From Bacteroidales bacterium (GTDB lineage: Bacteria > Bacteroidota > Bacteroidia > Bacteroidales > VadinHA17), in contig DATGWQ010000075.1 in NCBI GenBank assembly GCA_035299385.1, positions 11,633 through 75,632 of the forward strand: a DNA stretch of 64,000 bases, in the 5' to 3' direction. The translations under genes and the position numbers were made by a program. This document shows, piece by piece, positions 3,474 to 52,850 of the stretch. Numbering within the stretch: position 1 is the stretch's first letter; each line of letters starts with the position of its first letter. The notes under the pieces were generated by a model. That model was given only the letters and a program-made list of their open reading frames with translations, did not search any database and was not told the origin of the DNA.

Positions 3474-6400
3474 ATGAAGAAATCTGTTTCGGTTTTATTT
3501 CTTATTCTTCTGCTAGCTTCCTGTAACCCTGATGTAAGAAAAGGAGAACATTTGTTCACTTTGCTTCCCTCCTCGTCCACTCATATTCACTTTAATAATC
3601 AGCTTACGGAAACTGAGCAATACAATATTATTGAATACCTGTATTTCAATAATGGTGCAGGAGTGGCCGCCGGTGATATTAATAATGACGGGCTGGTTGA
3701 TCTTTATTTTACTTCAAACCAGCTTCCTGACAAGTTATATCTCAACAAAGGGGATCTAAAATTTGAGGATATTACTCAAAATGCAGGAGTTGCCGGAACA
3801 GGAGACTGGAAAACCGGTGTCACTATGGCTGATGTAAATGCCGACGGGCTGCTTGATATTTACGTGTGCGGCGTCGGCAATTACAAGAATTTTCATACAA
3901 GGAACCAGCTTTATATTAATAATGGTGATCTCACCTTTACTGAAAAGGCATCAGAGTATGGTCTTGATTTCAGCGGTCTTTCCACGCAGGCAGCGTTTTT
4001 TGATTATGATCTTGATGGGGATATCGACATGTACCTTCTCAACCATTCTGTTCATACCGTCTCCAGCTATGGAAATGCTTCACTTCGCAATGCGTCAGAC
4101 TCAATTGCAGGCGACAGGCTGTACCGGAACGATTCAAGGGAAGGAACCACAAAGTTCAGCAATGTAACAAAGAGGGCCGGAATTTTTAATAGCCAGATAG
4201 GCTATGGCCTGGGAATAAGCACATGTGATATCAACAATGATGGCTACCCTGATATATATATTTCAAACGATTTTCATGAAAATGATTACCTGTATATAAA
4301 TAATGGGAACGGAACCTTTTCCGAACGCCTCACTGAAATGATCCGCCACACAAGCAGATCCTCGATGGGTAATGATGCCGGAGATCTAAATAATGACGGA
4401 TTCAACGATATCATTGTCCTTGATATGCTGCCCGTTGAAGAGAAAATACGAAAGAGCGCTGGTGGTGAGGATGACTTAGATTTGTATGAATTCAAGCAAC
4501 AGATGGGCTACAATAAGCAGTTCGTGAGGAACACACTGCAGCTCAACCTGGATTGCGGTCTTTTCAGCGAAATAGGAGCCTATGCGGGCATCTGTTCAAC
4601 GGACTGGAGCTGGTCACCGCTTATTTTTGACATGGATAATGATGGACTCAAAGATATCTTCATTTCCACCGGTATCTACAGAAGGGCCAATGACTTGGAT
4701 TACATTAGCTTCCTTACAGGCGGAAACAGGTATTTCCCTGAAAAAGATAACAGCTCGCTAACAGATAAAGATCTATATGATAAAATGCCCGTTTTTCCGA
4801 ATTGTAACTATTTCTACAGGAATAATGGCGACCTGACATTCACCAATATGTCAGGGAAATGGGGCCTGAAGACAGCATCATTCTCGAACGGAGCTGTTTA
4901 CGCAGATCTTGATAACGATGGTGACATGGATGTTGTAACAAATAATATTAACGATAAAGCATTCATTTACAGGAACAACTCGGAAAGAAAGTATGGTAAT
5001 CATTACCTCGAAATTTTGCTCAGGGCCCCATCACCAAACTCTTCAGCTGTCGGATCAAGAGTCACAATCTATGCCGGAGGTCAGATTCAGATGAAAGAGC
5101 AATTCACAACCAGGGGATTTATGTCAGGTTCATCCGGCGTAGTACATTTTGGACTTAGCAGTGAAGCTGAAGCTGATTCACTGGTTATCAGATGGCCCGA
5201 CAGATCAGAACAAAAGATGGCAAATATCAATGCCAACCAGAGGCTGACAATTGTTAAAGATGATATAAAAGCATCTCCATACAAAAATGAATTAAAACCT
5301 GCAAAGAGATTTCAGTCAGCGGCTCCTGAAGGACTGAACTTCATCCATAAGGAAGATCCGTACAATGATATGCTGCAGCAAAATTTCCTGGTGCCGTTCA
5401 GTTTCTCGGCTGAAGGACCGGCCTTAGCTGTAGGCGACCTTAATGGCGACAAACTTGACGACCTGTTCGCGGGCGGTGCCAGAGATTGCACTTCAGCCAT
5501 CTTTTTTCAAAATAAAGACGGGTCATTCAGGAGATTTGACATTCCAATAAGATTAGAGGATAATTTCTCAGACGATGTTGATGCAGTGATCTTTGACGCT
5601 GATGGTGATAATGACAATGATATTTACATTGTGCACGGCGGCAATCAACTGGTTCCGGGAAATCCCTTCCTCACTGATAATCTTCTCATCAATGATGGAA
5701 ACGGGAACTTCGCGAGAAGAAAATTACCCTTCATCTCTCACAATGGATCATGTGTAAAACCCTGCGATTTTGATAATGACGGGGATATTGATCTCCTGGT
5801 GTGCTCAATATCAGTTCCGGGCGTATTCGGGTTGTCCCCTGCCAGCTACCTGCTGGAGAATACCGGAAGTGGCGAATTCAGAGATGTGACCCCGTTAAGA
5901 GCAAAAGGACTCGGGAATGCAGGCATGGTATCCGGGGCTGACTGGCTGGATTATGACCTTGACGGTGATATGGATTTTGCAATAGCCGGACCATGGATGA
6001 GAATAAAGGTTTTTGAAAATATTTCAGGTCATTTCGCAGAAACTGATTCAGTAAAAGGTCTTGAAAACACTTACGGATGGTGGAGCTGCCTGAAAACGAT
6101 AGACATAGATAATGACGGCGACATGGACATGATAGCCGGAAATCTAGGACTCAATTCCATGCTGCACGCATCACCTTCCAAACCTGTTGAACTTTACCTT
6201 GCCGATTTTGATAATAACGGAATCCCCGATCCTATTATATGTTCATACAATGACGGGATAAGCTATCCTTTTTCATCACTGGATGAACTCACCAGTCAGA
6301 TACCTGATCTGAAAAAGGAATTCAGGAGCTATTCCGATTTTGGTAAAAAGACAGTCGTGGATATCTTCGGCTCAAATGTTCTTGAAAAAAGCATACATCT

Positions 6401-23699: not shown

Positions 23700-25760
23700 T
23701 TAATTTTCCACCGGCAAATACGAATAATTCTTACCGTAATACAGCATCTGCCCCAGGTAGTCATCAGTATATTCGACCACAATGTCGGTTATATTTCCGT
23801 TTGCATCGTATTTCGGGAAGAGATATGGGTTTACAAAACCGGTGTATGGCGCAAGGTTAAGCTTCGCATACCGGTCAAGCATCTGCTGGTGAAGCTGCGG
23901 ATCGATCTTCACACCGTAGTTTTCGACCAGGTTTTTACCTGCTTCATAGTCACCTTCCGACTTTATTCTCTGGATTTCCTTAAGCAGGTCCCCGAACAAT
24001 GCCTGCAGCTTTTTGTAATCGTTTATTTTTACATATGTTTTGCCGTCACGGTCAAAAATTTCAACGACATTGTCAGGCTTGCCCCTTTCATAAACCCATT
24101 GACAGATAAGAGCGCGGTTGCGCATGTGAGCCTCCTCAATATCCCTGCCCGGCTTGACCCGGACAATCTGCGTGAGAAGTCCGTTTCTGATATAAGTGTC
24201 GTATTCGGCTTTTGCAGCATCATCGTCAGGAATGAGTCCGAGGTCTGACAATTTCTTATCCATCATATAGTAGAGGGCAAAAAGATCAGCCCTTGCCTCC
24301 TCCAGCGTTGATGCATAATTCCTGAGTGCATTCGGGTCTGTCCCGGGAGCCAGCTTTCCGCTGGCATGCCCGACACATTCATGAAGGTCGGTGTGAAGCT
24401 CTCCTGACAAAGAACCATATTTTTTCACCCGTTCGACTTCCTCCGGGCTTGCTGCAAACTCCTCAAGAAAGCCGTTTCCCCTTGATGCGACATCATACGC
24501 ATTAGTAATATTGGCCAGCGTGACGGACTTGGAGCCGACTTCCTTTCTTATCCAGTCTGCATTGGGAAGGTTGATGCCGAGGGGTGAAGCGGGATAAACA
24601 GCTCCGCCGAGCATTGCAATGTTGATGACCTTGGCATTTATTCCGGTAACCTTCTCTTTCCGGTACTCCGGCTGAATGGGCGAATTGTCTTCAAACCACT
24701 GTGCATTTGCAGTGATGATCTTTGTCCGCTTTGTTGCCTCCGGATCAGTGTATTCGACCGAAGCTTCCCATGTTGCCTTCATCCCAAGCGGATCGTCATA
24801 ATTTTCTATGAAGCCATTTATATAATCCACAACAGGGTCGGCATCTTTCGCCCAGGCGACATTGTATTCGTCCCAGGTATGAAGGTCGCCTGTCCTGTAA
24901 TAATCTATAAGGAGTCCCAGTTCATTTTTCTGGGCATCGGTTTCCGCAACTTCCCTTGCTTTTCCGAGCCATTTGATTATGCTGTCGATAGCCTGACCGT
25001 ACTTGCCTCCCGATTTATAGACCTCTTCGGTTACCTTCCCGTTTTTCTTTGTAAGCTTTGAATTGAGGCCCGCAGAGACGGGATGCGGATCATCCTTTTT
25101 GATCTGACCTTTATAGAAATCCTCAGCTTCCTTCTCGGTGACACCTTCATAAAAGTTTACAGCAGATTCACTGACCATGTCCACTCCGGCTTTCTGCTCA
25201 ACCTTGCGGGCGAACAGCTTTTCGTCAAAAAGAACCGGGGTGAGCATATCAGCCAATTCTGATGGCGACTGGTTGCGCACAAGAGGAAGTGCCGATGAAT
25301 CGGACCCTGAAATCAGCTTTGCAAAATAATCTTCGGAGAATTCAGGTTTGAACTTATCCTGTGAATAATGGTGATGTATTCCGTTGGCAAAGAATACTTT
25401 TTTCGCATATTTCAGAAAAGCCTTGTAGTCATTTGATTCCTTGTCGCCATTGTAGGTGTTCAGGATGGTCTCTATGGTTTTCCTTATCAGAAGGTTGTAT
25501 TTGAAGTTCTGATCCCAGAATATATCCCTTCCGGACAGCGCTGCCTGGCTAAGGTAATATGCATATTCCTTTTGCCTGAGTGTCAGGGAGTCGAAATCGG
25601 GAAGCTTGTATCTGAGTACCCTTATGTCGTCGAATTGACCGACAAAATATTTGAAATCGTCCTCTTTCTCGTTCCCGGCTTGAGGTTTTTCTTCTTTACA
25701 TGATGCTGACAAGAGTGTAATCATAAGAAAAGGTATGATGAATTTTCGGAATGTTTTCAT
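23700..25760 (-). CDS. Dipeptidyl-peptidase III (M49 family zinc metallopeptidase), secreted lipoprotein form
   Basis: 686-aa ORF, lipobox LLSASC. M49 zinc motifs HECVGH (HExxGH) and EEARADLFALY (EExR[AK][DE]). Confidence 0.85.
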   Translation of the reverse strand: MKTFRKFIIPFLMITLLSASCKEEKPQAGNEKEDDFKYFVGQFDDIRVLRYKLPDFDSLTLRQKEYAYYLSQAALSGRDIFWDQNFKYNLLIRKTIETILNTYNGDKESNDYKAFLKYAKKVFFANGIHHHYSQDKFKPEFSEDYFAKLISGSDSSALPLVRNQSPSELADMLTPVLFDEKLFARKVEQKAGVDMVSESAVNFYEGVTEKEAEDFYKGQIKKDDPHPVSAGLNSKLTKKNGKVTEEVYKSGGKYGQAIDSIIKWLGKAREVAETDAQKNELGLLIDYYRTGDLHTWDEYNVAWAKDADPVVDYINGFIENYDDPLGMKATWEASVEYTDPEATKRTKIITANAQWFEDNSPIQPEYRKEKVTGINAKVINIAMLGGAVYPASPLGINLPNADWIRKEVGSKSVTLANITNAYDVASRGNGFLEEFAASPEEVERVKKYGSLSGELHTDLHECVGHASGKLAPGTDPNALRNYASTLEEARADLFALYYMMDKKLSDLGLIPDDDAAKAEYDTYIRNGLLTQIVRVKPGRDIEEAHMRNRALICQWVYERGKPDNVVEIFDRDGKTYVKINDYKKLQALFGDLLKEIQRIKSEGDYEAGKNLVENYGVKIDPQLHQQMLDRYAKLNLAPYTGFVNPYLFPKYDANGNITDIVVEYTDDYLGQMLYYGKNYSYLPVEN

Positions 25761-25835
25761 GTCAATGTATTAAAATGTTCTGTATCAACTAAGTCTAACA
25801 CCGGTATTATTTTTTGGTTCAATGAAAACCATTTA

Positions 25836-25919
25836 CACAGAGGTGCACAGAGTTGCACAGAGGTGCACAGAGGTTATACTCTGTGGTTCTCTGTGCTTCT
25901 CTGTGTTTCTCTGTGTAAC
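25836..25919. repeat. Multi-stem inverted tandem repeat: 4x CACAGAGNNN followed by 4x CTCTGTGNNN
   Basis: Reads cacagaggtg cacagagttg cacagaggtg cacagaggtt ata ctctgtggtt ctctgtgctt ctctgtgttt ctctgtgtaac. Four 7-bp stems are separated by 3x3 internal loops. It lies in a divergent intergenic region. ORF 25819..26103 is its translation artefact. Confidence 0.75.
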
Positions 25920-25956
25920 AAAAAATTAAATTATATTGCATTACATTAATAAGAAC

Positions 25957-26664
25957 ATGGAAAAAATTCTGCACTCCATCAGAGCCGAGCTTCTCAGCAA
26001 TGCTAATGAGAAGGACAGGATTTCCGGTCAGAGGTTTTTTAAGGAGGAAGTGAAGCTTTTGGGCATTAAAACTGCTGTTGTAACGGCAATCGGGAAAAAA
26101 CACTTCAACAATCTGCCGGATAAATCAAAACCATTTGTATTTCAGATCTGCGATGAGCTGCTGAAAAGCGGCGTAATGGAGGAATGTTTCATTGCCTGTG
26201 AATGGTCATATTTTGTTCATAAAGAGTATGTTCCTGAAGATATTGAAGTTTTTGGCAAATGGGTGAACACTTATGTGAATAACTGGGCTGTATGCGACAC
26301 ATTATGCAACCACTCTGCCGGTGAACTTGTTGAAATGTATCCACGGTTGATAAAGAGGCTCAGGAAATGGGCTGGAGCGCCGAACCGCTGGATGAAGCGT
26401 GCATCAGCCGTAACACTTATCATTCCTGCCAGGAAAGGATTATTCCTCAACGATATTTTTGAAATTGCCGGTATCCTGCTCATGGATAAGGACGATATGG
26501 TGCAGAAAGGTTACGGCTGGATGCTTAAAGCTGCAAGCCAGGCCCACCAGAACGAAGTATTTGACTTTGTTATGAAGCACAGATCCGTGATGCCCAGGAC
26601 AGCGCTGAGGTATGCCATTGAGAAGATGCCGGCGGAGATGAAGAAAGAGGCGATGGGGAGATAG
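25957..26664 (+). CDS. DNA alkylation repair enzyme family (AlkD/AlkC-like HEAT-repeat) protein
   Basis: ORF-track start 25936 is TTG. The first ATG at 25957 (MEKILHSIRAEL) is preferred. ..FKEEVKLLGIKT.., WAVCDTLC, NRWMKRASAVTLI and GYGWMLK resemble the DNA_alkylation family. Confidence 0.7.
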   Translation: MEKILHSIRAELLSNANEKDRISGQRFFKEEVKLLGIKTAVVTAIGKKHFNNLPDKSKPFVFQICDELLKSGVMEECFIACEWSYFVHKEYVPEDIEVFGKWVNTYVNNWAVCDTLCNHSAGELVEMYPRLIKRLRKWAGAPNRWMKRASAVTLIIPARKGLFLNDIFEIAGILLMDKDDMVQKGYGWMLKAASQAHQNEVFDFVMKHRSVMPRTALRYAIEKMPAEMKKEAMGR

Positions 26665-26806
26665 GGCGAGAGGGCGAGGGGGCGAGGGGGCGAGGGGGCG
26701 ACAGGGCGAGGGAGCGAAGGGGCGATAGGACGAGGGGGCCAAGGGGCGATAGGGCAAGAGGGCGAGGGGGCGAAAAGTCGAGGGGGCGAAGGGGCGATAG
26801 GGCGAA
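26647..26806 (+). repeat. Tandem array, about 20 units of an 8-nt G-rich repeat (AGGGGGCG consensus)
   Basis: Reads aagaggcg atggggag atagggcg agagggcg agggggcg x3 acagggcg ... atagggcg. It starts inside the last codons of the AlkD-like CDS and runs 140 nt past its stop. Minus-strand ORFs 26440..26757 and 26511..26840 (PLAPSPPR periodicity) are artefacts of it. Confidence 0.85.
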
Positions 26807-26837
26807 AGAAAGGCTTATCGAAATGATGAAGTAAAGG

Positions 26838-26882
26838 CATGCGCGAAGGAATTCCCCTCCCTGGAGGGGGCAGGGGTGGGTT
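26838..26882 (+). repeat. 45-nt conserved element, copy 1 (GCATGYGCG..GGAATTCCCCTCCCYGGAGGGGGCAGGGGTGGGTT)
   Basis: gcatgcgcgaaggaattcccctccctggagggggcaggggtgggtt. Near-identical (about 4 mismatches) direct copy at 28689-28733. Contains the small hairpin CCCCT..AGGGG plus a G-rich tail. Confidence 0.8.
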
Positions 26883-26925
26883 CCATGTGAAAATTTCTTA
26901 TTTTTATACAGCCATATTCAATGAA

Positions 26926-28614
26926 ATGAAAAGGACAGTTCTTTTGTTTTTATTGTTTGTTATCTCTTTGGTTTCAAAAAGCCAGGACAGGATCACGGGA
27001 AGGGATTTTGCAACCCGGTCCGAAGTGATCGCCAGGAACGGGATGGCTGCGACAAGCCATCCGCTGGCAACCCAAACAGCCCTCGACATCCTTAAGCGCG
27101 GCGGCAATGCCATCGATGCTGCAATAGCCGCAAATGCCGTTCTCGGCGTCGTCGAGCCGACCGGGTCGGGTATCGGCGGTGACCTTTTCGCCATTATCTG
27201 GGTTGCCGACAGGGGCAAATTGTATGGTCTGAATGCCAGCGGCAGGTCACCACGATCACTCAAGCTTGAGTATTTCAGGGATAAAGGCCTGGAATTTATT
27301 CCATCATATGGCCCCCTGCCCGTATCTGTCCCGGGTTGTGTCGACGGATGGTTCGAAATGCACGATATGTTCGGGAAGCTTCCGATGTTAGACCTGTTGC
27401 AACCTGCAATCAGCTATGCACGCGACGGATTCCCGATGACAGAGGTTATTGGCTTCACCCTTGACCGGAATACTCAACTGCTTAAGGATTATCCCAACAT
27501 CAAGGAAGTTTATATGCCAAACGGCAAATCACCGGCAAAGGGAGAGATCTTCAGGAATCCTGCACTTGCAAATACTCTTTCAAAAATAGCCAAAGGCGGA
27601 AGGAACGAATTTTACAGGGGATCGATCGCACGCGATATTGAGGCCTTCATGAAGAAACAGGGTGGATTTCTCAGCTACGATGACCTTGCGAGGCATCATT
27701 CCGAATGGATAGAGCCGGTAAGCACCAACTACAGAGGTTATGATATCTGGGAGCTGCCGCCAAACGGCCAGGGTATCGCCGCACTTCAGATACTGAACAT
27801 ACTTGAAGGATACGATATATCATCAATGGGCTTTGGCTCTGCGGAGTACATGCATGCATTCACCGAAGCAAAAAAAGTAGCCTTCGAGGACAGGGCAAAA
27901 TATTATGCAGATCCTCTCTTCAGCGAAACACCTGTAAACCAGCTCATATCAAAAAAATATGCTGCCGAGAGAAGAAAGCTGATAGATCTGAATCATGCGG
28001 CTAAGGTTTATGACGCAGGCAGAATCGAAGCCGGAAACACAATCTACATGACAGTCGCTGACAGGTTCGGCAATATGGTCTCACTAATACAGAGCAATTA
28101 TCGTGGCATGGGTTCAGGCATGTGCCCAACAGGCATGGGCTTTGTCCTGCAGGACAGGGGTGAGATGTTCTCTTTGCAGGAAGGACATAATAATGTTTAT
28201 GCTCCGGGCAAAAGGCCATTTCATACAATTATCCCAGCCTTCATCACAAAAGATGGCAAACCACTGATCAGCTTCGGTGTCATGGGCGGTGACATGCAGC
28301 CGCAGGGTCATGTTCAGGTTGTTGTAAACCTGATCGATTTCAAAATGAACCTGCAGGAAGCCGGTGATGCCCCGAGAATGTACCATACAGGCTCTTCCGA
28401 ACCTACAGGCCAGCAAATGACGAACGGCGGTATTCTCCATCTCGAAAGCGGCTTCAGGACCGATGTCATCCAGAAATTGATGTCAATGGGCCATACGATC
28501 CAATGGGACCTGGGTGATTACGGTGGTTACCAGGCTATTATGTGGGACGAAAAGAATAAGGTCTATTTCGGCGCCTCAGAGTCGAGGAAAGATGGCCAGG
28601 CGGCGGGGTATTGA
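26926..28614 (+). CDS. ggt: Gamma-glutamyltransferase (Ntn-hydrolase), secreted
   Basis: The ORF opens at 26839, but its first 29 codons translate the repeat element (PLPGGGRGGF). The likely start is MKRTVLLFLLF at 26926, with a signal peptide. GGT hallmarks: GMAATSHPLATQ, GGNAIDAA, TGSGIGGD, autoprocessing region GNTIYMTVADRFGNMVSLIQS, and MGGDMQPQGHVQ. Confidence 0.9.
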   Translation: MKRTVLLFLLFVISLVSKSQDRITGRDFATRSEVIARNGMAATSHPLATQTALDILKRGGNAIDAAIAANAVLGVVEPTGSGIGGDLFAIIWVADRGKLYGLNASGRSPRSLKLEYFRDKGLEFIPSYGPLPVSVPGCVDGWFEMHDMFGKLPMLDLLQPAISYARDGFPMTEVIGFTLDRNTQLLKDYPNIKEVYMPNGKSPAKGEIFRNPALANTLSKIAKGGRNEFYRGSIARDIEAFMKKQGGFLSYDDLARHHSEWIEPVSTNYRGYDIWELPPNGQGIAALQILNILEGYDISSMGFGSAEYMHAFTEAKKVAFEDRAKYYADPLFSETPVNQLISKKYAAERRKLIDLNHAAKVYDAGRIEAGNTIYMTVADRFGNMVSLIQSNYRGMGSGMCPTGMGFVLQDRGEMFSLQEGHNNVYAPGKRPFHTIIPAFITKDGKPLISFGVMGGDMQPQGHVQVVVNLIDFKMNLQEAGDAPRMYHTGSSEPTGQQMTNGGILHLESGFRTDVIQKLMSMGHTIQWDLGDYGGYQAIMWDEKNKVYFGASESRKDGQAAGY

Positions 28615-28692
28615 GCATGGAGCAGGGAGCATGGAGCAGTGAGCATGGGGCAGGGAGCGTGGGGCATGGGGCAAGGACAGAGAATGAGCATG
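28613..28692 (+). repeat. Tandem array, about 11 units of a 7-nt repeat (GAGCATG/GAGCAGG)
   Basis: Reads gagcatg gagcagg gagcatg gagcagt gagcatg gggcagg gagcgtg gggcatg gggcaag... It begins on the ggt stop codon. ORF 28563..28757 (HAPCPMLTAPCSLLHA) is its artefact. Confidence 0.8.
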
Positions 28693-28733
28693 TGCGCCGG
28701 AATTCCCCTCCCCGGAGGGGGCAGGGGTGGGTT
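28689..28733 (+). repeat. 45-nt conserved element, copy 2
   Basis: gcatgtgcgccggaattcccctccccggagggggcaggggtgggtt. Direct repeat of 26838-26882. Its 3' end overlaps the stop codon of the minus-strand gene 28732..29493. Confidence 0.8.
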
Positions 28734-29493
28734 ATTGCTGTAAGACCTTAATTCCAAGCAAATCCATTACCCCGTTGATGAATGTCAACGGATGCACCGG
28801 GTTTCCGGGGACGTAAAGATCAATCTGATGTTCCTCTAAAAAGCTCCTGTCGAGCGCCGGGCTGCCGGCAAAAATCCCGCCGCTGATCGCATCGGTTCCG
28901 GCAAGAATTATTATACGCGGCGAGGGTATTGCTTCCCATGTGAGCAGGAGAGCCTCTGCCATGTTCTTCGAAATGGGCCCGGTAATCACAATCCCGTCAG
29001 CATGCCTTGGCGAGGCTACAAACTCGATGCCGTATCTTCCCATATCGAAATTGACGTTGCCCGCGGCATTCAGCTCCATTTCGCAGCTGTTGTCGCCACC
29101 GGCAGAGACCTGCCTGAGCTTCAGCGATCCCCTGAAAAGTTTCCTTATCTCCTTCCTGACAAGTTCAGGATCAACGATAATATCCTGTTCCGGCCCCTCT
29201 GCAATGATAAGCCTTTTGCGCTCATTAGTGGCAAACCTGTAGCTGGTTGTAAATTGGATCTTTTCAGGAAAGAGCCTTGCACATTCACCGCAAAAAACAC
29301 ATTTTCCAAGGTCTATACTGACAGGTGCGGTTGATATTGCATCGGTGGGACAACACCCCCCCAAAGCTTTTTCATCCACCTTAACGCTACTGATTACCGG
29401 CAGTCCCCTGAATATCCCGGGGACCCTGGCTTTGGACAGGTCGGGAATGTATTGTTTTCCCTGGTGATATAATATTTTGAGCGTGTTCAGCAT
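28732..29493 (-). CDS. Fused ferredoxin-like (HyfH/HycF-type) plus NuoB/HycG-like small-subunit homolog with degenerate FeS ligands
   Basis: 253-aa ORF. The N-terminal part has GGCCPTDAI and CVFCGECARLFP. The C-terminal part aligns by eye to NuoB/HycG (ASPRHADGIVITGPISKNM). The expected Cys positions read GGDNSCEME, GTDAISGG and PGNPVHP. Confidence 0.7.
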   Translation of the reverse strand: MLNTLKILYHQGKQYIPDLSKARVPGIFRGLPVISSVKVDEKALGGCCPTDAISTAPVSIDLGKCVFCGECARLFPEKIQFTTSYRFATNERKRLIIAEGPEQDIIVDPELVRKEIRKLFRGSLKLRQVSAGGDNSCEMELNAAGNVNFDMGRYGIEFVASPRHADGIVITGPISKNMAEALLLTWEAIPSPRIIILAGTDAISGGIFAGSPALDRSFLEEHQIDLYVPGNPVHPLTFINGVMDLLGIKVLQQ

Positions 29494-29502
29494 ATTTTCT
29501 TT

Positions 29503-30996
29503 CTAAAGATCATGCCCGCAATATGACAGGTTGAAGCTTTTATTGCAGACAGGGAAATCTGAAATCTCGTTGTATCTTACGGCAAGGGCAAGGGCCAGCC
29601 AGTTATGGAAGGATGGATCTTTCACCCTGTAAACTTTAATTTCGCCATCAGAGTCAGTAATTGCCGCATGGCAGGTCTCCCCTCTCCAGCCTTCATTCAT
29701 CGAAATTGCGAATGAATCCGGCTTCGGATTTAAACTGGCTTCACCAGCTGGATCCGGCAAACTGCTGATCAGCTTTCTCACGTAAGCAATTGATTGCAGG
29801 GTCTCTTCCTTCCTTATCTGCACCCTTGAATAAACGTCCCCATGATGCTTGATTACAGGCTTATGATCCAGTTCCGGATAAAGTCCGTACGGATGCGACA
29901 CTCTGATATCTCTTTCGAGGGCATTCATCCTGGCAGCCATTCCGACGGTACCAATCGAAAGCAGTTGTTCATAACTGAGGGCGCCGGTCCTCTCGAATCT
30001 CGAAAGTGCACTGGGAAGTTTCGAAACCTCCCTGTTCATTTCGATGAAATCGGGCTCGAAATTATCAAGTACTGAATTCAGCCTGTCAGCAAGCTCATTA
30101 TTGAAGGCATAAGCATTGTATCCCGGCCTTATCAATCCTTTTCCCAGCCTGTTCCCGCACCATTCCTGCATGAAATTGATTACCGGCGTACGGAGTCTTC
30201 CGAATACCGCGCTGCCGAGCTGATAGGCGATGTCCGTGCAAAGCGCGCTCAGGTCACCCGTGTGAACAGCAATTCTTTCAAGTTCCTGCGCCAGTGTACG
30301 CGCAAAAAGTACTTCCCTCTGCTGCTTTACCCCCGAAAGCGCTTCCGCCAGGAAAGCATATGATGATGCATGTCCCGCGACGCTGTCCCCTGCAATTGAT
30401 TCGGAAAGTACAATTCTCTGGATCGCTTTCTTCTTTTCGAGGAAAAGATTTTCAATCCCCCGGTGCTGGTAGCCAAGCTGTATTTCGAGATGAAGTATCT
30501 GTTCACCCTTGCACACAAACCTGAAATGACCAGGTTCGATTATCCCGGCATGAACAGGCCCCACTCCCACTTCATGCAGCTCCTCACTGTCTATCCTGAA
30601 AAACGGATAGTCGTACATTGAAAGTTTTTTATCGAACCTGTTTTCAGCATACCGGGCCGGTTTGAGCCACGGGTGATCAGAATAATTCAGCCCGAAGCTC
30701 TCATTCAAAACCCTCTCGAATTTCTCAAAATTGAAATTCACCGATGAAAATGATTCCAATGCTGAATCCTGTTCTGCAAGCGCAGAAGAAACCAGTATGT
30801 TATGATTCCGGTCATCGGCAATGCAGCATACAAGCTTTATATGACCCCCTTCATGATATCCAAAATATAATAGGCAATGTCTCTCCGGGTGATCTGTCAT
30901 AAGATCGAGATTTGCTTTCCTGAACTCGCCGTAAGGCATGACAGGTATCAGTGCAACACCCGCGGACTCATTATTATATATAGTTAAAAAGCTCAT
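29503..30996 (-). CDS. NuoC-NuoD / HycE(HyfG)-like large-subunit homolog lacking the canonical NiFe cysteine motifs
   Basis: 497-aa ORF. NuoC-like N-terminus, then GPVHAGIIEPGHFRFVCKGEQILHLEIQLGYQHRGIE (group-4 hydrogenase/NuoD signature). The L1 position reads SESIAGDSVAGH rather than CGICxxxH. The C-terminus reads DFPVCNKSFNLSYCGHDL rather than DPCxxC. Confidence 0.75.
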   Translation of the reverse strand: MSFLTIYNNESAGVALIPVMPYGEFRKANLDLMTDHPERHCLLYFGYHEGGHIKLVCCIADDRNHNILVSSALAEQDSALESFSSVNFNFEKFERVLNESFGLNYSDHPWLKPARYAENRFDKKLSMYDYPFFRIDSEELHEVGVGPVHAGIIEPGHFRFVCKGEQILHLEIQLGYQHRGIENLFLEKKKAIQRIVLSESIAGDSVAGHASSYAFLAEALSGVKQQREVLFARTLAQELERIAVHTGDLSALCTDIAYQLGSAVFGRLRTPVINFMQEWCGNRLGKGLIRPGYNAYAFNNELADRLNSVLDNFEPDFIEMNREVSKLPSALSRFERTGALSYEQLLSIGTVGMAARMNALERDIRVSHPYGLYPELDHKPVIKHHGDVYSRVQIRKEETLQSIAYVRKLISSLPDPAGEASLNPKPDSFAISMNEGWRGETCHAAITDSDGEIKVYRVKDPSFHNWLALALAVRYNEISDFPVCNKSFNLSYCGHDL

Positions 30997-48270: not shown

Positions 48271-48330
48271 CACAGAGAATGAACAGGGGCTCTGTGATCC
48301 ACTGTGCACCTCTGTGTAACTATGTGTAAC
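48271..48330. repeat. CACAGAG/CTCTGTG-family hairpin patch between convergent genes (terminator candidate)
   Basis: CACAGAG aatgaacagggg CTCTGTG atccactgtgcac CTCTGTGTAAC tatgtgtaac. Shares the CTCTGTGTAAC end with the 25836-25919 element. Confidence 0.55.
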
Positions 48331-48338
48331 TGGTTTCC

Positions 48339-52764: not shown

Positions 52765-52777
52765 TAAGTAGGACAGA

Positions 52778-52850
52778 TTTTGCGACTGGGCGATTGTGCG
52801 ACTTTGCGACCGTGCGGCTTTGAAACTTTGCGGCTGTGCGTCTTTGCTTG
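52778..52850 (+). repeat. Tandem array, about 9 units of an 8-nt repeat (TTTGCGAC consensus)
   Basis: tttgcgac tgggcgat tgtgcgac tttgcgac cgtgcggc tttgaaac tttgcggc tgtgcgtc tttgcttg. Lies between convergent genes. Confidence 0.75.

What the first reader, a model, noticed from the sequence alone, without database searches (positions are those of the whole stretch)
26647..28733. ggt bracketed by two copies of a composite structure: stop-codon-anchored G-rich micro-tandem array followed by a conserved 45-nt hairpin element
Both the AlkD-like gene and ggt end in the same way. Each stop codon is embedded in the first units of a short-period tandem array: 8 nt x about 20 (AGGGGGCG) and 7 nt x about 11 (GAGCATG). 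The 8-nt array is followed about 30 nt later by a near-identical 45-nt element; the 7-nt array runs directly into its copy. The element reads GCATGYGCG..GGAATTCCCCTCCCYGGAGGGGGCAGGGGTGGGTT, has about 4 mismatches between copies, and lies in the same orientation both times. ggt is therefore flanked by direct repeats. The arrays differ in unit sequence and period while the 45-nt module is conserved. This suggests the module seeds or tolerates local micro-satellite expansion. The G-runs on the plus strand have G-quadruplex potential. Possible roles are terminator/insulator, recombination hot spot or phase-variable spacer. Neither array is coding, although ORF callers will emit Pro/Ala-rich artefact proteins from them.
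Basis: seen in the sequence. Interest (0 to 1): 0.5.

Follow-up and report, generated by a model that had tools for sequence, protein, structure and literature searches.

The report
Triplex-type repeat beside stop-anchored micro-arrays
The two structures around ggt are real copies of a 52-copy DNA repeat whose core is a known kind of triple-helix-prone hairpin, each sitting next to short tandem repeats that are common in this group of bacteria. This is an ordinary pile-up of repeat DNA behind genes, not a ggt cassette or a terminator.

Summary
In detail: an 8-nt array (26649-26805), a 7-nt array (28613-28677) and two co-oriented 47-nt modules (26836-26882, 28687-28733) that differ at 4 positions.

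The module is not a plain hairpin. It is a class II purine-motif intrastrand-triplex motif of the BoxC/PIT/TM kind: CCCCTCC, then GGAGGGG, then the mirror tail GGGGTGG. Relatives occur across Bacteroidales, and in them the tail co-varies with its own stem.

The genome holds 52 copies at 38 loci. Of 33 scorable loci, 29 lie behind a same-strand gene. Spacers with a module hold arrays about ten times more often than other spacers, and adjacent arrays are co-oriented 42:3.

The reading that the module seeds arrays fails:
- 421 of 460 short arrays have no module nearby.
- Other triplex families in this genome show no coupling (6 of 115).
- Most of the 29 related species examined carry an array behind ggt; 25 of the 29 have no triplex-type motif there.

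ggt is ancestral at this site (80 of 80 relatives). No terminator signature was found. A G4 motif is present in these two arrays but in only 20 of 460.

In related species the same motif type brackets DUF559 nuclease genes. This genome's assembly has no such gene.

This scan has noted stop-anchored heptamer arrays and a heptamer-tailed BoxC/TM mosaic before, on other DNA.

The parts
25936..26664 (+). AlkD-like DNA alkylation repair gene. Its last two codons and the TAG stop are array-like.
   Evidence: Pfam PF08713, E = 5e-59. Relatives end ...AMAK*, this genome ends ...AMGR* with the array starting at 26649.
26649..26805 (+). Degenerate 8-nt tandem array (GGCGAGGG, 19.6 copies). It is the third longest short-period array in the genome and carries three G4 motifs on the sense strand.
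   Evidence: TRF. Length rank. G4 scan. About 20 of 23 relatives with the same gene pair have only a 30-51-nt spacer here.
26806..26835 (+). Linker between the array and the module. It corresponds to the weakly conserved 5' extension seen in other copies.
   Evidence: MAFFT alignment of 49 genomic copies. Conservation fades upstream of the GGC at -23.
26836..26882 (+). Module copy 1. 5' arm 26836-26853; Y domain CCCCTCC 26854-26860; loop 26861-26862; R domain GGAGGGG 26863-26869; loop GCA 26870-26872; mirror (reverse-Hoogsteen) domain GGGGTGG 26873-26879; tail GTT.
   Evidence: Family and domain logic.
26883..26925 (+). A+T-rich 43-nt stretch before the ggt start. It presumably holds the ggt promoter, which the insertion has pushed about 220 nt away from the AlkD-like stop.
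   Evidence: Relatives carry a conserved TTTACCTTTG-type box in a 30-51-nt spacer. In this genome the promoter is inferred only.
26926..28614 (+). ggt (gamma-glutamyltranspeptidase, signal peptide at the N-terminus). It is ancestral at this site.
   Evidence: Pfam PF01019, E = 4e-162. 80/80 genus genomes match, with conserved neighbours.
28613..28686 (+). Degenerate 7-nt array (GAGCATG/GGGCAGG, 9.3 copies to 28677, then a decayed tail). It has one G4 motif. Its unit resembles the module's own 5' heptamer.
   Evidence: TRF. G4 scan. Most relatives have an array at the same place with other units such as GGGCGCA, GGGCACA, AGCGTAG.
28687..28733 (+). Module copy 2. 5' arm 28687-28704; Y 28705-28711; loop 28712-28713; R 28714-28720; loop 28721-28723; mirror domain 28724-28730; tail GTT.
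28732..29493 (-). Convergent ferredoxin/NuoB-like gene. Its stop codon (28732-28734) is formed by the module's terminal TT plus A, and the protein is 4 residues (VLQQ) longer than in most relatives.
   Evidence: ORF list. Pfam PF01058. C-terminal comparison.

Best explanation
The two structures are local pile-ups of two kinds of repeat DNA typical of this uncultured Bacteroidales lineage. I do not think they are a device built around ggt.

(1) Arrays. The arrays belong to the heptanucleotide-class simple-sequence repeats. They most likely arise by replication slippage of a short word at or including the stop codon. They can grow only away from the coding sequence, so they abut the stop with the G-rich strand in the sense direction. 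They turn over quickly between species.

(2) Module. The 47-nt module is one family of class II purine-motif intrastrand-triplex repeats (the BoxC/PIT/TM kind). It consists of a C-rich arm, its G-rich complement, and a second G-rich arm that mirrors the first, so the single strand could fold into a triplex. This family has been amplified in this genome to at least 52 copies at 38 loci. Its copies lie almost always in the spacer behind a gene, in the sense orientation, and next to or inside the arrays.

Shown: the family, its domain logic and covariation, its orientation, its coupling to arrays, and the fact that ggt and the post-ggt array site are older than the module.

Inferred:
- The module arrived at both spacers by independent copy events in this lineage.
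- Copying carries some flanking DNA. The 5' boundary is fuzzy, and composite units are tandemly duplicated at 7 loci.
- The copies are non-autonomous relatives of the triplex repeats that bracket DUF559 (Vsr-like) nuclease genes in sister species.
- The element has no dedicated role for ggt.

Side effects are real. The module supplies the stop codon of the convergent NuoB-like gene. The array has rewritten the last two codons of the AlkD-like gene. Two 47-nt direct repeats now flank ggt.
For: Family size and identity: 52 copies, 37 with an identical 27-mer core.

Triplex logic:
- In 20 elements from 19 loci of other Bacteroidales genomes, an A in the purine arm is mirrored by A/T in 30/33 cases and a G by G in 34/38.
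- That is 90% compatible positions, against 70% for permuted partners. None of 2000 permutations reached the observed value.
- The genome holds 161 G/C-rich class II motifs, against 0 in a block-shuffled genome.

Orientation: at 29 of 33 scorable loci the upstream neighbour is the 3' end of a same-strand gene (p = 1e-5). Between co-directional genes the ratio is 21 sense to 1 antisense.

Coupling to arrays:
- 29/52 modules have an array within 60 nt, against 5.6 expected.
- The coupling survives stratification by spacer length (odds ratio 10.4).

Arrays are a genome-wide class: 900 TRF arrays, of which 225 have period 7. The median distance from the upstream stop is 8 nt. AGCGTAR arrays are 23 sense to 1 antisense.

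Order of events: the AlkD-like/ggt/NuoB-like arrangement is conserved. Most relatives have an array directly behind the ggt stop, and 25 of 29 have no triplex-type motif in that spacer.

DUF559 link:
- The same motif type (CCCCTCC / GGAGGGG / GGGGTGGG) brackets a DUF559 subfamily in six congeners.
- Of 30 DUF559 genes in the genus, 24 have a triplex motif on at least one side and 19 on both.

Published background: PMC4666352 for the motif class; PMC4679880 and PMC4692102 for the array class.
Against: - The strong sense orientation (29:4) and the family-specific coupling to arrays are not explained by neutral accumulation alone. They could reflect a function or a directed insertion mechanism that I could not identify.
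- No copy mechanism was demonstrated. The module has no terminal inverted repeats, no clear target duplication and no crisp 5' end.
- The DUF559 subfamily that carries this motif type in relatives is missing from this assembly (best match 45% identity).
- Presence or absence of the motif does not track DUF559 across 37 genomes.
- Triplex formation itself is untested.
- No strain-level data were available to show that the arrays slip.
Confidence: 0.6

Rival explanations
1. Functional 3'-end element. The array plus module acts on transcripts or transcription behind genes. It could be an RNA hairpin that protects the mRNA 3' end, as REP elements do in E. coli. It could be an insulator between neighbouring units. 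Or its C-rich antisense transcript could be a good Rho loading site that suppresses antisense or read-through transcription.
For: Strong sense orientation of the module (29:4; 21:1 between co-directional genes) and of AGCGTAR arrays (23:1). Position directly behind stop codons. In the ggt/NuoB-like convergent gap, array and module fill the whole 117-nt spacer with no other candidate terminator.
Against: There is no U-tract, and no terminator-like site was called at either copy. The conserved mirror arm has no role in an RNA hairpin, and purine-motif triplexes are reported not to form in RNA (PMC4666352, introduction). E. coli PIT/BoxC elements showed no promoter or terminator activity (same source). 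About 90% of gene ends have no such structure, and the module is absent from this locus in nearly all relatives.
Confidence: 0.17
2. The module's folded DNA stalls replication, and the stall seeds or drives micro-satellite expansion next to it.
For: Five- to ten-fold enrichment of arrays beside modules, and 42:3 co-orientation. In six loci, including the post-ggt one, the array unit (GRGCAKG) equals the module's own 5' heptamer. Published triplex motifs stop polymerases in vitro and mark variable intergenic regions in E. coli (PMC4666352).
Against: The 115 other triplex motifs of the same genome have arrays at background rate (6/115; 8/88 when only co-directional and convergent spacers are counted). 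421/460 arrays have no module. Arrays beside modules are not longer (39 vs 37 nt, p = 0.54). Most relatives have an array behind ggt without any triplex-type motif in that spacer. In G025 the module sits in the middle of arrays of one and the same unit, which looks like insertion into an existing array.
Confidence: 0.1
3. Mobile composite run by a nuclease. The module, with or without its array, is the non-autonomous partner of a DUF559 (Vsr-like) endonuclease, in the way REPINs depend on RAYT. The nuclease recognises the folded motif and its nicks lead to copying. Repair synthesis at the nick produces the adjacent arrays.
For: The same motif type brackets a DUF559 subfamily in G016, G025 (twice), G033, G003, G036 and G009. 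24/30 DUF559 genes of the genus have flanking triplex motifs, at a density of 2.5 per kb near the gene against 0.53 elsewhere in the same loci. Each genome has its own dominant loop variant, as expected from bursts. A solo copy lies upstream of the ispG-like gene in this genome, where G033 has a full DUF559 cassette.
Against: The cognate DUF559 subfamily is not in this assembly, although the assembly has the most solo copies. Four genomes have the motif but no DUF559 hit, and the copy-number correlation is weak (rho = 0.42; relatives are not independent). No cut site, target duplication or nuclease activity is known. Later checks recorded in earlier notes of this scan put the same claim on other DNA at roughly 18-27%.
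Confidence: 0.1
4. Phase-variable switch or assembly artefact. Either array length toggles expression of ggt, or the arrays are mis-assemblies.
For: Short-unit arrays are classic contingency loci. 13 of the triplex-finder copies of this family touch contig ends, so repeats do disturb this assembly.
Against: The arrays lie behind stop codons and upstream of the promoter region, not between promoter boxes or in frame. They are degenerate (74% matches), which short reads resolve and which slips poorly. The same architecture recurs in many independent genomes.
Confidence: 0.03

Closest known systems
BoxC / PIT elements / G/C-rich intrastrand triplex motifs (TM, TMECO) of E. coli and other bacteria (Holder et al. 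2015, PMC4666352, citing Bergler 1992 and Hoyne/Maher 2000-2002)
   Same: Same domain order on one strand (C-rich arm, complementary G-rich arm, 3-nt loop, mirror G-rich arm: class II purine motif). Intergenic, tens of near-identical copies per genome. Copy number differs greatly between close relatives. Inverted pairs occur. Some Bacteroidales variants even share the TTA second loop.
   Different: Arms are 7 nt here, not 9, and the sequence does not fit the TMECO pattern. E. coli copies show no strand bias, whereas this family is 29:4 sense-oriented behind genes. This family is coupled to short tandem arrays, which that paper does not mention. The word 'Bacteroid' does not occur in the paper's main text.
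Heptanucleotide-class long simple sequence repeats: Mrazek 2007 as summarised in PMC4679880; cyanobacterial STRR; TAACTGA repeats (PMC4679880); G-rich GGGNATC repeats of Xanthomonas/Nostoc (PMC4692102)
   Same: Units of 7-8 nt with period 7 dominant in the genome. [quoted passage not shown] Some are G4-capable. Fast turnover between species.
   Different: Many different unit words occur in one genome, several laid side by side in one spacer. One third of the copies of one dispersed repeat family are welded to them.
REP/REPIN-RAYT systems and BIME mosaics
   Same: Short structured intergenic repeats behind genes, often clustered into mosaics. Relatives of the repeat bracket a small nuclease-type gene in inverted orientation.
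   Different: The only Y1 transposase gene of the genome is flanked by an unrelated palindrome. The bracketing gene in relatives is DUF559 (Vsr-like fold), not a RAYT. There is no GTAG head.
BrickBuilt MITE of Porphyromonas gingivalis (PMC4596501)
   Same: A Bacteroidales intergenic dispersed element that contains an internal tandem array between conserved leader and tail parts.
   Different: BrickBuilt has 23-nt units, inverted-repeat ends and promoter activity. Here the units are 7-9 nt and vary between copies, there are no inverted ends, and the conserved part is a triplex-type motif.

Membership tests
Class II purine-motif intrastrand triplex repeats (BoxC/PIT/TM class) | One strand carries, in order, a pyrimidine arm, its Watson-Crick purine complement and a third purine-rich arm that mirrors the second (G opposite G, A or T opposite A), joined by short loops | tested here: met
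   CCCCTCC / GGAGGGG / GGGGTGG with loops of 2 and 3 nt in both window copies. My finder gives 161 such motifs in the genome and 0 in a shuffled genome.
Class II purine-motif intrastrand triplex repeats (BoxC/PIT/TM class) | The third arm follows its own stem when the stem sequence changes (three-way covariation) | tested here: met
   20 elements from 19 loci of other Bacteroidales genomes: A to A/T in 30/33, G to G in 34/38, 0 of 2000 partner permutations as good. The first four G of each arm were fixed by the search pattern and were not counted.
Class II purine-motif intrastrand triplex repeats (BoxC/PIT/TM class) | The strand actually folds into a triplex (CD, NMR, DMS footprint, polymerase stop) | not testable with these tools
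   Only Watson-Crick folding is available here. The hairpin alone gives -8 to -9 kcal/mol, z about -0.3.
TMECO proper (E. coli consensus) | Pattern CCCTCNCCC N3-6 GGGNGAGGG N3 GGGNGAGGG with 9-nt arms | tested here: not met
   Arms here are 7 nt with a different sequence (pattern from PMC4666352, section on G/C-rich motifs). It has the same architecture but is not the same family.
Heptanucleotide-class simple sequence repeats (LSSR/STRR) | Head-to-tail units of 5-11 nt, at least 3 copies, with period 7 over-represented in the genome | tested here: met
   900 arrays, 225 of period 7, 460 with period 6-12 and at least 3 copies.
Heptanucleotide-class simple sequence repeats (LSSR/STRR) | Unit number varies between strains (slippage) | not testable with these tools
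   No same-species DNA was found. The best metagenome relative of ggt is 86% identical in protein. Between species the arrays differ in unit and length.
REP/REPIN-RAYT | A Y1 (RAYT) transposase gene flanked by inverted copies of the repeat | tested here: not met
   One PF01797 hit, at G000:C340, flanked by a different palindrome. No core motif lies on that contig.
Intrinsic (Rho-independent) terminator | G+C-rich hairpin directly followed by a T/U run | tested here: not met
   The consensus scan of 25700-29600 calls no site at either module. The sequence after the hairpin is GCAGGGGTGGG.
MITE | Terminal inverted repeats and a target-site duplication with sharp ends | tested here: not met
   Alignment of 49 copies: the 3' end is sharp (GGGT, then T/A, then A), the 5' end fades, and there are no terminal inverted repeats. 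Target duplication was not resolvable.
DUF559-cassette end repeats | Inverted copies of the repeat bracket a DUF559 gene | tested here: inconclusive
   Met in six congeners for this motif type, and for other motif types at all 5 DUF559 genes of this genome. No DUF559 gene with this motif type is in this assembly.
G-quadruplex-forming repeat | Four runs of at least 3 G separated by 1-7 nt | tested here: met
   Met for both arrays (three motifs and one motif). Not met for the module. Only 20/460 arrays in the genome qualify.

The most novel reading that the evidence does not exclude
This sense-oriented, array-welded triplex repeat is the non-autonomous half of a REPIN/RAYT-like partnership whose enzyme is a DUF559 (Vsr-fold) nuclease. 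The nuclease recognises the folded motif and copies it into spacers behind genes. Repair at its nicks creates or reshapes the adjacent 7-8-nt arrays. That would give both the long-orphan BoxC/triplex repeats and bacterial heptamer arrays a shared enzymatic cause.
Probability: 0.12. Interest if true: 0.75.

Novelty: new variant of a known kind. Interest (0 to 1): 0.36.

Why it matters
Both components are known but unexplained classes of bacterial repeat DNA. Three things here go beyond what I found in print.

- There is three-way covariation evidence, across many Bacteroidales genera, that the triplex-capable design itself is what is conserved.
- One triplex family, unlike its E. coli relatives and unlike the other triplex families of the same genome, is almost always sense-oriented behind genes and joined to short tandem arrays.
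- Cross-species evidence at one locus shows that the array site is older than the module.

For annotation, such spacers produce Pro/Ala-rich false ORFs. They can also rewrite the last codons and the stop codons of neighbouring genes. If the DUF559 link held, it would name an enzyme for a repeat class that has had none since the 1990s.

Tried and rejected
- Rfam at E up to 1 over 25700-29000 found nothing at either module. Only the inverted decamer arrays at 25829-25925 gave sub-threshold miRNA-hairpin matches.
- RAYT/REP: the single Y1 transposase has other flanking palindromes.
- Terminator scan: negative.
- Hairpin energy: not better than shuffles.
- ggt as a repeat-bounded cassette: rejected, because the gene order is conserved in the genus.
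- Strain-level array variation: one metagenome scan with the ggt protein returned nothing closer than 86% identity, so this could not be tested.
- Correlation of motif count with DUF559 count across 37 genomes: rho = 0.42, but presence/absence shows no link (15/4 vs 15/3). It is uninformative, and relatives are not independent.
- Convergent-gene stop codons supplied by the module's TTA end: only a few convincing cases, so not pursued.
- I considered testing whether composite copies at dispersed loci share linker sequence beyond chance. I did not run it, because shared array units make similarity trivial.
- Orientation relative to replication could not be tested in a 363-contig assembly.


Full report
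**What is there.**
- TRF finds an 8-nt array at 26649-26805 (19.6 copies, 74% matches) and a 7-nt array at 28613-28677 (9.3 copies).
- The 35-nt core of the conserved element occurs exactly twice in the window (26848-26882, 28699-28733), against none in 100 shuffles.
- With the conserved 5' arm the two copies are 26836-26882 and 28687-28733. They are on the same strand, 1851 nt apart, and differ at 4 positions.
- The flanking genes are an AlkD-like DNA alkylation repair gene, ggt and a convergent ferredoxin/NuoB-like gene.
- The AlkD-like stop lies in array-like units. TRF's start of the 7-nt array overlaps the last two bases of the ggt stop.

**The module is a family.** The window's own genome is an uncultured Bacteroidales assembly of 4.98 Mb in 363 contigs with 45% G+C.
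- It holds 52 copies of the 27-nt core at up to 4 mismatches, 37 of them identical. The reversed control pattern gives none.
- The copies fall into 38 loci. Seven loci are tandem duplications of the whole array-plus-module unit, with 2 to 6 units each.
- An alignment of 49 copies shows a sharp 3' end (GGGT, then T/A, then A). The 5' arm (GGCATGTGCG, two variable bases, GGRATT) fades into weakly similar sequence, and there are no terminal inverted repeats.

**What the module is.**
- The core reads CCCCTCC, 2 nt, GGAGGGG, GCA, GGGGTGG. The third block is not complementary to anything. It is the mirror image of the second block, with T opposite the A.
- That is the design of a class II purine-motif intrastrand triplex. 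This is the class to which the E. coli BoxC/PIT/TMECO repeats belong (PMC4666352).
I then tested it myself.
- A loose pattern (ATTCCCC, 4-14 nt, GGGG, 3 nt, GGGG) hits 66 of 401 sampled Bacteroidales genomes in 56 of 236 genera. The controls are nearly empty, and the stems differ between genera.
- I fetched 20 such places and compared arms beyond the four G fixed by the pattern. An A in the purine arm is mirrored by A/T in 30 of 33 cases, and a G by G in 34 of 38.
- Overall 90% of positions are triplet-compatible, against 70% when tails are paired with other elements' stems. None of 2000 permutations reached the observed value.
- A finder written for this design gives 161 motifs in this genome and none in a block-shuffled copy.
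- The hairpin alone is energetically unremarkable. No Rfam family matches.
- The module fits the architecture of the class but not the TMECO sequence pattern: its arms are 7 nt, not 9.

**The arrays are a genome-wide class.**
- TRF finds 900 arrays in the genome, 225 of period 7. Of all arrays, 460 have period 6-12 and at least 3 copies.
- They start a median of 8 nt after the stop of the upstream gene.
- Some unit families are almost always sense-oriented: AGCGTAR is 23:1 between co-directional genes. Those units contain TAG or TAA.
- In several loci the gene's own stop codon is the first unit. This fits slippage seeded at the stop and free to grow only downstream.
- The class is known in print. 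See heptamer-dominated long simple sequence repeats (Mrazek 2007, as summarised in PMC4679880) and G-rich heptamers within 50 bp of stop codons on the sense strand in Xanthomonas and Nostoc (PMC4692102).
- This scan has also noted it repeatedly in other Bacteroidales genomes.
- Only 20 of 460 arrays carry a canonical G4 motif. The two arrays here are among them, and the module has none.

**Coupling of module and arrays.**
- Of 52 modules, 29 have an array within 60 nt: 26 on the 5' side, 15 on the 3' side, 12 on both. Random intergenic windows give 5.6 (maximum 14 in 200 draws).
- Adjacent arrays share the module's G-rich strand 42:3.
- Stratified by spacer length, 13-18% of module-free spacers of at least 60 nt hold an array, against 45-83% of module-bearing spacers of 120 nt or more (1 of 3 in the 60-120-nt bin). 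Overall the odds ratio is 10.4 (p = 4e-8).
- The coupling is specific to this family. The other 115 triplex motifs of the genome have arrays nearby in 6 cases. In co-directional or convergent spacers the figure is 8 of 88. They show no orientation bias (25 sense, 20 antisense), whereas this family is 21:1.
- With stricter gene calls, 29 of 33 scorable loci have the 3' end of a same-strand gene upstream (p = 1e-5).
- Arrays next to modules are no longer than others (39 vs 37 nt, p = 0.54).

**History of this locus.**
- All 80 sampled genomes of the genus match the region, and the AlkD-like/ggt/NuoB-like order recurs. ggt was therefore not brought in by the repeats.
- The AlkD-like/ggt spacer is only 30-51 nt in about 20 of the 23 relatives that keep both genes, and it holds a conserved TTTACCTTTG-type box. 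Two relatives have module-free arrays there. Here the spacer is 261 nt.
- Directly behind the ggt stop, most of the 29 relatives carry a short array with varying units (GGGCGCA, GGGCACA, GGGCTCA, AGCGTAG and others).
- Three relatives have other triplex-motif variants in the ggt/NuoB-like gap: L047, L049 and, by the NuoB-like stop, L048. L041 has a hairpin-like element there that I did not classify.
- The array site is therefore older than the module, and this convergent gap has been colonised by triplex motifs several times.
- In this genome the gap has no free sequence left. The NuoB-like protein is 4 residues longer than in most relatives, and its TAA is made from the module's last bases.

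**How the module may spread.**
- In a congener (G016) an inverted pair of the same motif type encloses a 120-codon ORF that is a DUF559 (Vsr-like nuclease) gene.
- The same DUF559 subfamily, with the same motif type on both sides, occurs in G025 (twice), G033, G003, G036 and G009. The reading frame often runs through the motif (...PTPxPSREG).
- Of 30 DUF559 genes from 29 species of the genus, 24 have a triplex motif on at least one side and 19 on both. The density is 2.5 per kb near the gene, against 0.53 elsewhere in the same loci.
- All five DUF559 genes of this genome are framed by triplex-like repeats, but of other families.
- Against a simple enzyme-partner model, the cognate subfamily is missing from this assembly (best match 45% identity).
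- Also against it, four genomes have the motif without a DUF559 hit, and the count correlation is weak.
- I found no paper linking DUF559 to repeats among the 25 that mention it. Earlier notes of this scan made the same link on other DNA, and later checks recorded there put it at roughly 18-27%.
- I therefore keep it as the most novel reading still open, at about 12%.

**Verdict.**
- The composite is a real, recurrent architecture.
- The evidence speaks against the module seeding the arrays, against a terminator, and against any special relation to ggt.
- My best reading, at about 0.6, is repeat DNA of two known kinds that accumulates behind genes. One triplex family inserts into, or is copied together with, stop-anchored arrays in a fixed orientation.
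- The strong sense orientation remains the main unexplained point. It keeps a transcription-related role alive at about 0.17.
- Strain-level array variation, transcript ends, triplex folding and nuclease activity could not be tested here.

Noticed in passing
window 25829-25925: Four units of CACAGAGGTG are followed by four units of the reverse-complement word (CTCTGTGNTT). Together they form a roughly 80-nt near-perfect hairpin in the spacer between the gene at 23700-25760 (-) and the AlkD-like gene. It scores below threshold on several miRNA-precursor models simply because it is a long hairpin. The same decamer word family recurs elsewhere (48290-48331, and more than 20 arrays genome-wide).
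   Followed up: partly
window 52776-52846: A further degenerate 8-nt array (TGCGACTG, also readable as 16- or 24-nt units). Its context was not examined.
   Followed up: no
G000:C124:1-104 (2028-nt contig): The contig starts with about 15-17 units of CCCTAA, the eukaryote-type telomere hexamer, followed by degenerate CCCTAA-like sequence and later GGGTCTG/TTAGGG-like words. It could be a eukaryotic contaminant in the bin or the end of a linear replicon.
   Followed up: no
G000:C103:2478-2504 and L234 (G033:C1:56100-57400): A solo copy of the triplex motif lies about 35 nt upstream of the ispG-like start in this genome. In G033 the same gene is preceded by a full DUF559 cassette with 11 tandem 42-nt motif units. 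These are open in frame (GSPPWRGWGWVSSS, about ten times) and continuous with the ispG-like frame.
   Followed up: partly
G000:C340:4030-4263: The genome's only Y1 transposase (RAYT/IS200-like) gene sits at a contig end. Next to it are copies of a different palindromic repeat (…ACAGTTGGCTTCAGCCAACTGT…), probably a separate REP-type family.
   Followed up: partly
G000:C39 about 5380-5470; G000:C46 and C238 DUF559 loci: Some copies have a second hairpin of 30-45 nt inserted between the purine arm and the mirror arm (a split third arm). The same expanded form frames two DUF559 genes of this genome.
   Followed up: no
G025 loci L096, L098, L117, L122: In a congener, one subfamily of the motif sits in the middle of AAGACNG arrays at four or more dispersed loci. 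Its immediate flanks are conserved (TTTTGGAT ... TTCGTGATGAGT) and GAAG lies on both sides. This is compatible with insertion into an existing array with a 4-nt duplication, but a phase effect of the array could explain it too.
   Followed up: partly
window 26440-26840 (- strand): Two ORFs of 105 and 109 codons run through the 8-nt array on the opposite strand. They would be called as Pro/Leu/Ala-rich proteins and are almost certainly artefacts.
   Followed up: partly
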